The translations under genes and the position numbers were made by a program. Under the pieces are notes generated by a model, which searched no databases, was not told the origin of the DNA, and worked only from the letters and a program-made list of their open reading frames with translations. This document shows, piece after piece, positions 14,688 through 15,438 of a stretch of 34,714 nucleotides of DNA; positions within the stretch are counted from its first letter, which is position 1, and each line of letters begins with the position of its first letter. This stretch comes from a virus (lineage: Duplodnaviria > Heunggongvirae > Uroviricota > Caudoviricetes). Where the stretch lies: IMG/VR virus record IMGVR_UViG_2740892487_000001; one strand, given 5' to 3'.

Positions 14688-15188
14688 TTATTCGCTCCCG
14701 TTATCGCAAGGTTCCTTCCGGTGGAAGTAATTCCAACCGTTCCACTTCGCCAACTGGTTACCACTACCAACAGGCATACGGTTTGGATAACCGGACTTAC
14801 ATTTAGCGGCTTTTGCTCTGTCCATTGCAGACAGTTTGACGAGTCGCTCTTTCCCGTATCTGGCAGTGGTTATAAGTTTTGCAGGCGCTTCCAGCGCATA
14901 ATCCGGTGCAATGCGGCAGGCAAGGTTGAAAATAACAGCATTGATAGCGTTATTTGATAAACCGTGCTCATCGCCCGGATCTGGAGCGACATCTGCATCA
15001 GCGAAAATGTAGCCAACGCTGATACCAGGTGACACATCACCGCCAAGCCATTCAGCCATCATCATTTCAAGGTCGTTGACGCCGTCTTCCATAGACTGCG
15101 GTTCGACATCGGTTAACGTGGCATTTGATGCCACACCGAGCTTACGTAATGCTGCAAGGACTAAATCACCCTTCGTTGTCAGGTTCAT
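14688..15188 (-). CDS. Tail accessory / head-completion protein gp4-like
   Basis: From the ATG at 15188: [33 protein letters not shown]... matches P22 gp4 as recalled. The upstream (SQ)n extension in the track ORF is the alternative frame of the hexamer repeat. Confidence 0.85.
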
Positions 15189-15438
15189 CTGCTGCCGCCT
15201 TAGGTTTTCGACCAGGATTTTTACGCTGTTTTTCTTCTGGCTCTGGCTCTGGCTCTGGCTCTGGCTCTGGCTCTGGCTCTGGCTCTGGCTCTGCAACATC
15301 CTTCAAAAGGTCATCAGGATGTGAAAACCAACCAGCATCCAGATATTCCTGAAGCTCTTCGGCTTTCACGATTTCAAAGTCGTAGCCAACGCCTTTCCAC
15401 TTCTTCATGTCGCCATGACGAAAGATCATGTGTGTCAT
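15166..15438 (-). CDS. Small acidic protein carrying an (EP)9 dipeptide repeat, between coat and gp4
   Basis: ATG at 15438 preceded by GGAG; [49 protein letters not shown](EP)9[23 protein letters not shown]. The ORF is open and has a ribosome-binding site, but function is unknown. Confidence 0.55.
15239..15292. repeat. Perfect hexanucleotide tandem repeat (GGCTCT)9
   Basis: Nine uninterrupted copies; encodes (EP)9 in the small ORF on the minus strand. Confidence 0.95.

What the first reader, a model, noticed from the sequence alone, without database searches (positions are those of the whole stretch)
15166..15438. Small ORF with a perfect (GGCTCT)9 repeat encoding (EP)9 between coat and gp4
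P22 as I recall has no comparable gene between gene 5 and gene 4. Here a 90-aa acidic ORF with a ribosome-binding site contains nine perfect hexamer repeats; a perfect array this long is prone to slippage, giving in-frame length variation. The same repeat read in another frame gives (SQ)n upstream of the gp4 start. It could be a flexible linker protein, a decoration factor, or a repeat that tunes gp4 translation.
Basis: seen in the sequence. Interest (0 to 1): 0.5.

Follow-up and report, generated by a model that had tools for sequence, protein, structure and literature searches.

The report
P22 orf69-family gene with variable repeat
The repeat lies in a real small phage gene, the E. coli counterpart of phage P22's uncharacterised orf69; a slippage-prone six-base repeat makes its central Glu-Pro spacer vary from 2 to 33 units between closely related prophages, and its function is still unknown.

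Summary
On the minus strand, a 90-aa ORF (15166..15438) with a GGAG ribosome-binding site lies between coat and gp4 and carries nine perfect GAGCCA units, (EP)9.

P22 has an annotated homologue in the same slot, orf69, and both proteins match PHROG 1175 end to end.

The gene is real. The N-terminal 46 codons give pN/pS 0.18 in frame, against 1.8-2.2 in the off-frames.

The protein has three parts:
- a confidently folded beta-hairpin/helix module of about 45 aa;
- the EP spacer;
- a basic tail (RKNPGRKPK) that in distant relatives is a canonical AT-hook (RGRP).

The array is a true microsatellite. Directly read perfect arrays span 2-33 copies, always in frame. Three prophages differing by 0-3 substitutions in 2 kb carry 20, 19 and 14 copies. 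P22-type genes have no repeat.

In all 17 distinct loci examined the gene abuts or overlaps a gp4-type adaptor gene, in one case with no coat gene upstream.

The (SQ)n frame is not coding, and copy number does not change predicted gp4 RBS accessibility.

Function remains unknown. The best inference is a non-virion, DNA-binding accessory factor linked to gp4 and head completion.

The parts
15166..15438 (-). Small ORF, 90 aa, member of the P22 orf69 / PHROG 1175 family
   Evidence: Translation. phrog_1175 E 4.6e-33 over residues 1-88. Homology to P22 orf69. RefSeq annotates the equivalent CDS as 'hypothetical protein' in all E. coli relatives fetched.
15298..15438 (-). N-terminal folded module (residues 1-47): beta-hairpin, helix, then GW.HP..LL
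   Evidence: AlphaFold2 pLDDT 82-93 for residues 1-45, with strands 2-14 and 17-25 and helix 26-34. G36, W37, H40, P41 and L44 are invariant across the family. Nei-Gojobori pN/pS is 0.175 in frame, against 1.80 and 2.16 in the off-frames.
15238..15291 (-). Microsatellite (GAGCCA)9 encoding (EP)9, residues 50-67; the acidic spacer
   Evidence: TRF. Codon-by-codon reading. Directly read perfect arrays in relatives have 2, 4, 5, 8, 9, 14, 15, 16, 19, 20 and 33 copies. The region is predicted disordered.
15199..15225 (-). Basic AT-hook-like motif R72-K80 (RKNPGRKPK) in the C-terminal tail
   Evidence: K78 and K80 are nearly or fully invariant. The homologous position in distant relatives carries canonical RGRP cores: 7 of 81 tails against 0.04 expected, and 19 of 81 for the loose motif against 0.37 expected.
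15445..15448 (-). Shine-Dalgarno GGAG of the small ORF, 6 nt before the ATG
   Evidence: Sequence. TGGAG plus a 6-nt spacer is conserved upstream of the ORF in nine loci from other strains and genera.
15456..15477 (-). Terminator-like hairpin (9-bp stem, UUCG loop, U-run) between the coat stop and the small ORF
   Evidence: Scan. RNA fold -21.1 kcal/mol, z -3.55. Equivalent features are annotated in P22 ('stem_loop') and Sf6 ('t coat' terminator). The stem is kept across genera, with GGGAGC/GCTCCC or GGGGC/GCCCC arms and UUCG, GAAA or UUUG loops.
14688..15188 (-). gp4 head-tail adaptor gene (166 aa). Its SD (AAGGCGG, 15201..15195) and ATG lie inside the small ORF
   Evidence: Pfam P22_Tail-4 E 6.5e-58 and phrog_637. 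The start matches the 501-nt RefSeq CDS in relatives.
15166..15188 (-). 23-nt overlap between the end of the small ORF and the start of gp4 (gp4 is in the +1 frame)
   Evidence: Coordinates. The P22 orf69/gene 4 overlap is 17 nt. Other relatives abut or overlap by 1-17 nt.
15483..16778 (-). Coat protein gene (gp5 homologue), the upstream neighbour
   Evidence: Pfam P22_CoatProtein E 2.8e-166.

Best explanation
This is the E. coli-lineage form of the P22 orf69 gene, a real small protein-coding gene of the late operon.

**Shown**
- The protein has a folded N-terminal module of about 45 aa, an acidic Glu-Pro spacer, and a short basic C-terminal tail.
- The spacer is encoded by a GAGCCA microsatellite. 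It expands and contracts in frame much faster than point mutations accumulate, giving 2-33 perfect copies in the arrays read directly. Some family members have no linker at all.
- The gene is always immediately upstream of a gp4-type adaptor gene. It abuts or overlaps that gene, and in this window carries the gp4 ribosome-binding site within its own last codons.

**Inferred**
- The array changes by replication slippage.
- Spacer length is only weakly constrained, so the array drifts. The EP run is an extended acidic spacer and not a functional surface.
- The tail is a degenerate AT-hook that contacts DNA.
- The N-module binds a partner: gp4, portal, or possibly DNA.
- The protein is therefore a non-virion accessory factor acting around DNA packaging or head completion, co-expressed with gp4.
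For: - **Gene and family:** full-length phrog_1175 matches for the window ORF and for P22 orf69. The same slot is annotated in P22.
- **Coding:** pN/pS 0.175 in frame, against 1.8 and 2.2 in the off-frames. dN/dS is 0.07-0.16 between genera. The SD is conserved.
- **Architecture:** AlphaFold2 gives confident residues 1-45 and a disordered remainder. The family alignment shows a conserved N-module and basic motif flanking a length-variable linker.
- **Microsatellite:** directly read perfect arrays have 2, 4, 5, 8, 9, 14, 15, 16, 19, 20 and 33 copies. Lengths of 59 E. coli prophage matches imply 2-33 units with a mode of 4. L011, L012 and L015 differ by 0-3 substitutions in 2037 nt but carry 20, 19 and 14 copies.
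- **Weak length constraint:** P22-type proteins are fixed at 69 aa with no repeat. Citrobacter NCU1 has no linker at all.
- **AT-hook:** RGRP or related cores lie 2-14 aa from the C-terminus in 19 of 81 distant relatives, against 0.37 expected.
- **gp4 linkage:** coat|orf|gp4 in nine loci from genome contigs. Six of six distant relatives sit directly upstream of a P22_Tail-4 or Gp77 adaptor gene, including L030 where the upstream gene is a tail beta-helix protein and not coat.
Against: - No experiment shows translation, DNA binding or any partner.
- The window's own tail has GRKP and not the canonical RGRP, and Pfam and NCBIfam report no AT-hook or other domain.
- Part of the tail's conservation (K-P-K-A = AAG CCT AAG GCG) could reflect the embedded gp4 Shine-Dalgarno sequence and not protein function.
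- Gene adjacency in phage morphogenesis modules is often conserved without direct interaction.
- The same GAGCCA unit persists across genera whose synonymous sites are saturated. Pure drift does not obviously predict this.
Confidence: 0.55

Rival explanations
1. The length variation is adaptive, not drift. The EP array would be a tunable 'molecular ruler' that sets the distance between the N-module and the DNA-binding tail, with different lengths favoured in different hosts or conditions. This resembles a contingency locus, but changes length and not an on/off state.
For: - Extreme variability among near-identical prophages.
- Arrays of 6-8 perfect GAGCCA units are kept in Kluyvera, Buttiauxella, Citrobacter, Rahnella and an unnamed enterobacterium, even though dS is about 1-2 in the adjoining codons.
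- Many alleles replace P with S, Q, T or L while keeping the E-x periodicity.
Against: - The family functions with no repeat in P22-type genes, which occur on more than 1000 contigs at an invariant 69 aa, and with no linker in Citrobacter NCU1.
- The unit distribution in E. coli is broad (2-33, mode 4), with no sign of discrete preferred classes.
- Persistence of one unit can be explained by concerted evolution through slippage.
Confidence: 0.15
2. The protein acts on the host or against a defence system, not in assembly. The N-module, linker and tail would form a chassis that can also carry a cargo domain, and the late-operon position would be incidental, as for a moron.
For: - The same slot holds a long form in which a WDGH domain (PF25311) is inserted between the N-module and the same EP linker and tail.
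- WDGH occurs as a free-standing protein in unrelated Listeria, Bacillus and Streptococcus phages.
- Sf6 has a non-homologous small gene (phrog_3251) in the same slot, as expected for an exchangeable accessory slot.
Against: - Strict linkage to gp4-type adaptor genes holds across very distant relatives.
- Expression is from the late operon, downstream of coat.
- No function is known for the WDGH domain, and the literature searches found nothing relevant.
Confidence: 0.1
3. It is a virion or capsid-associated structural or decoration protein, with the EP run forming an exposed rigid rod.
For: - It lies in the structural operon, next to coat.
- (EP)n runs form extended rods in TonB and trypanosome procyclins; the only Pfam and NCBIfam hits are to those low-complexity regions.
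Against: - From my own knowledge, and not tested here, the established P22 virion and procapsid protein inventories (gp1, 4, 5, 7, 8, 9, 10, 16, 20, 26) do not include an orf69 product.
- The Sf6 tail structure paper does not mention the slot's gene product, although Sf6's gene belongs to a different family.
- The terminator-like hairpin before the ORF implies much lower expression than coat.
- There is no similarity to the known Dec-type decoration proteins or to any solved structure.
Confidence: 0.08
4. The ORF matters mainly as a translated leader that delivers ribosomes to the gp4 start by translational coupling, and the repeat length tunes gp4 output.
For: - The gp4 SD and ATG lie inside the last codons of the ORF, and the two genes overlap by 23 nt.
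- Overlap or abutment is conserved.
Against: - Strong purifying selection on the N-module protein sequence, and a confident fold.
- Predicted unpaired probability of the gp4 SD-AUG region is 0.37-0.41 for 0, 1, 2, 4, 9, 15, 20 and 33 copies.
- Coupling may well occur, but it does not explain the protein.
Confidence: 0.07
5. The repeat is part of an N-terminally extended gp4, (SQ)n-gp4, or of an ORF-gp4 fusion made by +1 ribosomal frameshifting.
For: - In the window the gp4 frame is open from the ATG at 15299 through the array.
- Three GenBank phage records (IME10, Dewey, Louie) annotate gp4 that way.
Against: - In allele L018 the array contains CTA codons, which read as TAG stops in the gp4 frame.
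- P22 has TAA two codons upstream of the gene 4 ATG.
- The Pfam P22_Tail-4 match and all RefSeq annotations start at the internal ATG.
- The ATG at 15299 has no properly spaced SD.
- In several relatives the two genes do not overlap at all.
Confidence: 0.02

Closest known systems
Salmonella phage P22 orf69 (NP_059631, PHROG 1175), hypothetical protein
   Same: - Same slot: coat, stem-loop, small ORF, overlap with the gene 4 start.
- Same N-terminal module and the same basic RKGRKPKA tail.
- Both match phrog_1175 end to end.
   Different: - P22 orf69 has a 7-residue non-repetitive linker (PVEADDV) and an invariant 69-aa length in Salmonella.
- The window gene has a 54-nt microsatellite.
- About 33% identity.
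Phage L / ST64T orf186 (PHROG 3769), 'detailed function unknown' (PMC8022706)
   Same: - Same slot, a related N-module, and in E. coli versions the same EP linker and identical tail.
   Different: - It carries an inserted WDGH domain (PF25311) of about 100 aa, which the window gene lacks.
Shigella phage Sf6 gene 6 protein / HK620 hkbT (PHROG 3251)
   Same: - A small gene in the same slot, after the annotated 't coat' terminator and overlapping the gp4 homologue.
- A basic KRGRKA stretch near its C-terminus.
   Different: - No detectable sequence homology: a different PHROG, with no phrog_1175 hit.
- No repeat.
Phage lambda gpFI, DNA-packaging chaperone (PDB 2LSM)
   Same: - Encoded between the major capsid gene and a head-completion gene; this gene order is my own recollection and was not checked here.
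- A two-part protein with a flexible connection.
- The review PMC13595911 describes it as bridging the capsid and the terminase-DNA complex. This resembles what the bipartite architecture here suggests.
   Different: - No evidence that the window protein binds capsid or terminase.
- The resemblance is positional and architectural only.
AT-hook DNA-binding motif (for example HMGA proteins; Pfam PF02178)
   Same: - A short basic G-R-(K)-P-K peptide near the terminus of a disordered region.
- Distant family members have the canonical K/R-R-G-R-P-P-K form at the same place.
   Different: - The window has GRKP and not RGRP.
- No Pfam hit.
- DNA binding is untested.
- The codons also encode the gp4 Shine-Dalgarno sequence.
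TonB (EP)n-(KP)n spacer and trypanosome procyclin EP repeats
   Same: - Glu-Pro dipeptide runs. The only hits from general family libraries are to these regions (Trypan_PARP E 9.4e-5; TonB E 0.005).
- They are known as extended spacers (my own knowledge).
   Different: - Compositional resemblance only, far below the family cut-offs.
- No membrane or periplasmic context.
Tandem 'ELxxYLxxGW' modules in the C-terminal regions of GIY-YIG/NUMOD3 homing-endonuclease-like proteins
   Same: - An 18-column motif shared with the N-module (strand end, helix, GW). The whole-library hmmsearch gives E down to 4e-15 for proteins with 4-7 copies, and hhalign gives probability 96.8%.
- One such protein passes Pfam thresholds for GIY-YIG and NUMOD3.
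   Different: - Only 18 of about 45 residues align.
- The hhalign test is partly circular, because the repeats were picked from hits to the same profile.
- Similar repeats also occur in secreted proteins carrying Cu_amine_oxidN1 and trypsin domains.
- The window ORF has no nuclease domain.

Membership tests
P22 orf69 family (PHROG 1175) | Full-length match to the family profile | tested here: met
   phrog_1175 E 4.6e-33, residues 1-88 on profile positions 1-72 of 72. P22 orf69 itself scores E 4.5e-31.
P22 orf69 family (PHROG 1175) | Position directly upstream of the gp4-type adaptor gene, abutting or overlapping it, usually after coat and a stem-loop | tested here: met
   Window, P22, nine loci from genome contigs, six distant relatives.
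P22 orf69 family (PHROG 1175) | Conserved N-module residues (G9, G16, V17, L29, G36, W37, H40, P41, L44, L45) and a basic C-terminal motif | tested here: met
   24-sequence alignment A3.
AT-hook motif | Core R-G-R-P flanked by basic residues | tested here: not met
   The window has P-G-R-K-P-K, and Pfam and NCBIfam report no AT-hook. Canonical RGRP is present at the homologous place in 7 of 81 distant relatives. The window tail is therefore at best a degenerate variant.
AT-hook motif | Binds the minor groove of AT-rich DNA | not testable with these tools
   Needs EMSA or footprinting with the tail peptide.
Lambda gpFI-type packaging chaperone | Fold of the gpFI C-terminal head-binding domain (2LSM) | tested here: not met
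   [not shown]
Lambda gpFI-type packaging chaperone | Binds the major capsid protein and stimulates terminase-prohead interaction | not testable with these tools
   The functional definition is taken from PMC13595911.
Phase-variable contingency locus (simple sequence repeat switch) | Repeat length hypervariable between closely related genomes | tested here: met
   20, 19 and 14 copies in flanks differing by 0-3 substitutions over 2037 nt. Range of 2-33.
Phase-variable contingency locus (simple sequence repeat switch) | Length change switches expression on or off (unit not a multiple of 3, or promoter spacing) | tested here: not met
   The unit is 6 nt. Every allele read keeps the frame and the same tail.
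gp4 (P22_Tail-4) N-terminal extension | The (SQ)n frame is conserved as coding and contiguous with gp4 | tested here: not met
   TAG stops in that frame in L018. TAA before the P22 gene 4 ATG.
WDGH-domain protein (PF25311; orf186 type) | Presence of the WDGH domain | tested here: not met
   No WDGH hit for the window ORF. It is present in L007 and phage L orf186.
GIY-YIG homing endonuclease | GIY-YIG catalytic domain | tested here: not met
   No such domain in the 90-aa ORF. Only an 18-column motif is shared with their C-terminal repeats.

The most novel reading that the evidence does not exclude
The orf69 family may be an overlooked, widely conserved partner of the gp4 adaptor in P22-like podophages. 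It would be a small bipartite protein that holds DNA with an AT-hook tail and a head-completion or packaging component with its N-module, making it a functional counterpart of lambda gpFI, which P22 is not known to have. In enterobacterial lineages a microsatellite would then let the reach of this tether change within very few generations, possibly altering DNA retention, packaging or transduction.
Probability: 0.12. Interest if true: 0.65.

Novelty: new member of a known kind. Interest (0 to 1): 0.4.

Why it matters
P22 is one of the best-studied phages, yet orf69 and its relatives have no assigned function.

This analysis gives the family a testable anatomy:
- a folded module;
- a spacer of almost arbitrary length;
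- an AT-hook-like tail;
- strict linkage to the gp4 adaptor gene.

It also documents an unusually active hexanucleotide microsatellite inside a conserved phage late gene, with 2-33 perfect copies in E. coli prophages. That could serve as a fine-scale prophage typing marker and as a natural experiment on linker-length tolerance.

It corrects a recurrent annotation error, in which gp4 is extended through the (SQ)n frame in several GenBank phage records.

If the gene proves dispensable and the array neutral, the finding is ordinary: a drifting repeat in a disordered linker.

Tried and rejected
- **General family libraries:** Pfam and NCBIfam scans of the ORF returned only low-complexity hits (Trypan_PARP, TonB, DnaX linkers), far below their cut-offs.
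- **Literature:**
  - The 'orf69' searches returned nothing about P22 orf69 in the one hit read or in the other titles and abstracts.
  - 'orf186' gave only 'detailed function unknown'.
  - 'WDGH' gave nothing relevant.
  - Casjens & Thuman-Commike 2011, the paper most likely to discuss this slot, is not held.
  - The Sf6 'gene 6' hits were about gene 61.
  - The repeat sequence itself matched only synthetic Gly-Ser linkers and eukaryotic primers.
- **HeH/SAP reading:** I read the alternative '...AKELGIKFDGR.S.E.L...I' C-termini of some distant relatives as HeH/SAP/Rho_N-like. Pfam did not confirm this at E <= 1, so it stays an unverified resemblance.
- **(SQ)n-gp4 extension:** rejected.
- **RNA-structure tuning of the gp4 RBS by copy number:** rejected in silico.
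- **Complex prediction:** a co-fold of the N-module with gp4 could not be run, because the structure tool takes single chains from the window only.
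Full report
**1.

All the genes here are on the minus strand.
- Tandem Repeats Finder reports a single period-6 array at 15236..15293, with 9.7 copies, 100% matches and no indels.
- In the coding orientation it is GAG CCA x9 (15291..15238).
- The ORF 15166..15438 translates to a 90-aa protein: [49 protein letters not shown](EP)9[23 protein letters not shown]. Its pI is 4.5.
- GGAG lies 6 nt before the ATG.
- Upstream is a P22-type coat gene (15483..16778). Downstream are gp4 (14688..15188), gp10 and a needle gene with an Sf6-type knob.
- The window is a P22-like prophage in reverse orientation.

**2.

The RefSeq record of P22 annotates orf69 (6135..6344) between gene 5 and gene 4. 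It lies after an annotated stem-loop and overlaps the gene 4 start by 17 nt.
- Its product is MKIAIYKPGGSIMVWGVMAQMKVIDSSELPEYVKDGWLDHPSKLLPVEADDVKPRKGRKPKAVSDADKD. It aligns with the window protein over the N-terminal part and the basic tail (33% identity, E 1e-8).
- Both proteins match PHROG 1175 ('unknown function') end to end, with E 4.6e-33 and 4.5e-31.
- So the window ORF is the orf69 homologue of an E. coli-lineage P22-like prophage, and what differs is the repeat.
- RefSeq calls the equivalent ORF 'hypothetical protein' in every E. coli relative fetched.
- One GenBank phage record (APC_JM3.2) even annotates the repeat_region.
- Three phage records (IME10, Dewey, Louie) instead extend gp4 through the repeat.

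**3. It is a real protein-coding gene**

Seven loci from different genera were compared: the window, two Citrobacter, Kluyvera, Buttiauxella, an unnamed enterobacterium and Rahnella.
- The first 46 codons give pN/pS 0.175 in the ORF's frame, against 1.80 and 2.16 in the other two frames.
- Pairwise dN/dS is 0.07-0.16 while dS is about 1-2.
- TGGAG plus a 6-nt spacer precedes the ATG in all nine loci fetched from the species-representative genome collection.
- AlphaFold2, run with a 24-sequence family alignment, predicts residues 1-45 with pLDDT 82-93 as a beta-hairpin (2-14, 17-25) followed by a helix (26-34) and a short helix (41-44). Residues 46-90 are disordered.

**4. The repeat is a hyperactive in-frame microsatellite**

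- Direct reading of the array gave perfect GAGCCA runs of 2 (Bas106), 4, 5 (HZ41), 8 (APC_JM3.2, IME10), 9 (window; STEC383), 14, 15, 16, 19, 20 and 33 copies. The 33-copy allele is in E. coli 98195 and gives a 138-aa protein.
- The lengths of 59 E. coli prophage matches imply 2-33 units with a mode of 4.
- About 4% of complete E. coli genomes carry the locus, 217 of 5426.
- Three prophages from a dog in Thailand and humans in Germany and Pakistan differ by 0-3 substitutions over 2037 flanking bases, yet carry 20, 19 and 14 copies. Copy number therefore changes far faster than point mutation.
- Interrupted alleles (ES, EQ, ET, EL, DP units) are common in the protein database.
- The unit is 6 nt, so the frame is never broken. 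This is length variation and not on/off phase variation.
- The Salmonella orf69 type is fixed at 69 aa without any repeat. A Citrobacter allele joins the N-module directly to the tail. The spacer is therefore dispensable in length, and even in existence, for the family.

**5. An unexplained detail**

The unit is the identical hexamer GAGCCA in Kluyvera (x8), Buttiauxella (x7), two Citrobacter lineages, Rahnella and the unnamed enterobacterium, although synonymous sites next door are saturated. Three explanations remain open:
- concerted evolution by slippage from one ancestral array;
- horizontal exchange of the segment;
- selection on the nucleotide sequence itself.

**6. The two other readings of the repeat fail**

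The gp4 frame is open through the array in the window. However:
- an ES/EP/EL allele uses CTA for Leu, which creates TAG stops in that frame inside the array;
- P22 has TAA two codons before the gene 4 ATG;
- Pfam P22_Tail-4 and RefSeq start gp4 at the internal ATG.

For translational tuning, I folded the mRNA from the N-module to the gp4 codons with 0, 1, 2, 4, 9, 15, 20 and 33 units. The mean unpaired probability of the gp4 SD-AUG region stays at 0.37-0.41. Coupling of gp4 translation to the ORF is plausible, because the gp4 SD (AAGGCGG) and ATG lie inside the ORF's last codons. It is not affected by the repeat in this model.

**7. What the wider family says**

A profile of the N-module alone was searched against 1.84 billion cluster representatives. 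It found 248 proteins at E <= 1e-3.

Most are small proteins with the module at the N-terminus, then an acidic low-complexity linker (EP, EA or PE repeats in at least 16), then a short C-terminal motif.
- In 19 of 81 tails the motif is AT-hook-like. Seven carry the canonical RGRP core (for example KPRRGRPPKVKE). Shuffles give 0.37 and 0.04 respectively. The motif always lies 2-14 residues from the end.
- The P22 and E. coli tail (RKGRKPKA, KKPGRKPKA) sits at the homologous position and looks like a degenerate version.
- Ten others end in an '...ELGIKFDGR.S...L' motif. I suspected it was HeH/SAP-like, but Pfam does not confirm this.

A second class of hits are 250-480-aa proteins with 4-7 tandem copies of 'ELxxYLxxGW'.
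- One passes Pfam thresholds for GIY-YIG and NUMOD3, so these are homing-endonuclease-like proteins. The repeats lie where DNA-binding modules normally sit.
- hhalign gives 96.8% probability, but over only 18 columns and with some circularity.
- Similar repeats also occur in secreted proteins.
- I therefore treat a DNA-binding role for the N-module as possible, not shown.

**8. The conserved partner is gp4**

- All nine loci from the species-representative genome collection have coat | ORF | gp4.
- Six distant relatives, which independently hit phrog_1175, are each directly upstream of a P22_Tail-4 or Gp77-type adaptor gene, abutting or overlapping it.
- In L030 the upstream gene is a 668-aa tail beta-helix protein and not coat. 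The pair ORF-gp4 is therefore the conserved unit.
- The slot is also mosaic. Some E. coli and many Salmonella phages (L, ST64T, ST104, BTP1) carry a long form in which a WDGH domain (PF25311) is inserted between the N-module and the same linker and tail. Sf6 carries a non-homologous 61-aa gene (phrog_3251) with a KRGRKA stretch.

**9. Most likely mechanism**

The shown points are the gene, the three-part anatomy, the fast in-frame copy-number change and the gp4 linkage.

The inferred points are these.
- The array changes by replication slippage.
- The EP run is an extended acidic spacer under weak length constraint.
- The basic tail contacts DNA.
- The N-module binds a partner.
- The protein is a non-virion accessory factor acting around packaging or head completion.

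The closest functional analogy is lambda gpFI. By my recollection it is encoded between the capsid gene and a head-completion gene. A recent review describes it as bridging the capsid and the terminase-DNA complex, and the same review lists no such factor for P22 (PMC13595911). There is no sequence or fold similarity to gpFI or to any solved structure. BFVD returns only other uncharacterised small phage proteins. The analogy is a hypothesis and not a classification.

From my own knowledge, classical P22 genetics found no essential complementation group between genes 5 and 4, and virion protein inventories lack an orf69 product. This fits a non-essential, non-structural role but was not tested here.

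**10. Verdict**

It is wrong on P22, and the tuning, decoration and (SQ)n readings are unsupported.
- The object is a new member of a known but uncharacterised family, carrying an expanded microsatellite.
- Interest is moderate. It is not categorically new, but it gives a concrete, testable picture of a conserved unknown gene in a model phage group, and it documents one of the more active coding microsatellites seen in E. coli prophages.

**Caveats**
- Most copy numbers were inferred from match lengths; only 12 E. coli-type alleles were read directly.
- Protein-database diversity is inflated by clustering at 90% identity.
- The window has frameshifts at homopolymers elsewhere. Sequencing error cannot be excluded, although a hexamer array is less prone to that kind of error.

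Noticed in passing
window 15456-15477 (minus strand), between the coat stop (15483-15485) and the small ORF: A terminator-like hairpin: AGAGGGAGC-UUCG-GCUCCCUUU followed by a U-run (-21.1 kcal/mol, z -3.55). The equivalent element is annotated as 'stem_loop' in P22 and as the 't coat' terminator in Sf6. Across genera the stem is kept, with GGGAGC/GCTCCC or GGGGC/GCCCC arms and UUCG, GAAA or UUUG loops. It probably lowers expression of everything downstream of coat.
   Followed up: partly
window about 19869-21369 (minus strand), shift near 20290-20325: The large terminase homologue is split. P22 gp2 residues 1-361 align in one frame (94% identity) and residues 349-497 in another. The two alignments overlap at 20287-20324; the run of seven A (GAAAGAAAAAAACAGCC) lies in or beside that stretch, and its exact coordinate was not pinned down. 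This is either a degraded prophage or a homopolymer sequencing error.
   Followed up: partly
window 7848-9694 (minus strand): The gp16 (ejection protein) homologue is also split between two frames. P22 gp16 residues 1-196 align at 9691..9107 and residues 198-609 at 9098..7851, seen as ORFs of 210 and 407 aa. The gp7 homologue aligns only over residues 1-147 of 229.
   Followed up: no
window 12943-13066 (minus-strand needle gene 12316..13269): A 42-bp tandem repeat (3 copies, 70% matches) encodes 14-residue repeats (ADHE(T/S)RI.AAE..L) in the coiled-coil shaft of the gp26-type needle. The needle ends in an Sf6-type knob (PF16532) although the coat is P22-type, so the virion module is mosaic.
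   Followed up: no
window 30883-30911 and 30946-30977: Two clusters of perfect 11-bp direct repeats (TGGACAACCGT / CGTTGGACAAC; 2.6 and 2.9 copies) lie inside the 296-aa ORF 30473..31363 (minus strand). They look like iterons of a lambda-O-type replication origin, as annotated inside P22 gene 18. This was not checked.
   Followed up: no
L007 1567-2166 (E. coli N-01), L009 801-1361 (phage L orf186); E. coli hits H65-H75: The coat-gp4 slot is an exchange point. Some prophages carry a long form, N-module + WDGH domain (PF25311) + (EP)n + identical tail. WDGH alone is widespread as a protein of about 100 aa in Listeria, Bacillus, Streptococcus and other phages, and no function or literature was found for it.
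   Followed up: partly
proteins P0205, P0214, P0218-P0220, P0224, P0226, P0227, P0229, P0236, P0237: GIY-YIG (and NUMOD3) homing-endonuclease-like proteins whose C-terminal halves are built of 4-7 tandem modules of about 35 aa, 'gkIwInkdG..K.I...EL..YL.DGW..G'. No Pfam model covers these modules. They may be an undescribed DNA-binding repeat.
   Followed up: partly
L002 1089-1694 (IME10), L003 1089-1682 (Dewey), L006 1089-1676 (Louie): In these GenBank phage records gp4 is annotated 29-35 codons too long, running through the (SQ)n frame of the repeat, and the small ORF is missing or truncated. This is an annotation error that will propagate by similarity.
   Followed up: yes
window 2561-4393 (minus strand): The 610-aa tailspike ORF resembles P22 gp9 only in the first 115 residues or so (the head-binding domain, 74% identity). 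The receptor-binding part is unrelated to P22's, as expected for a different O-antigen specificity.
   Followed up: no
L023 (Kluyvera) 1723-2001: In this locus about 277 nt separate the coat gene from the orf69-type gene, against about 45 nt elsewhere, and the usual hairpin is not directly upstream of the ORF. An extra element may be inserted there.
   Followed up: no
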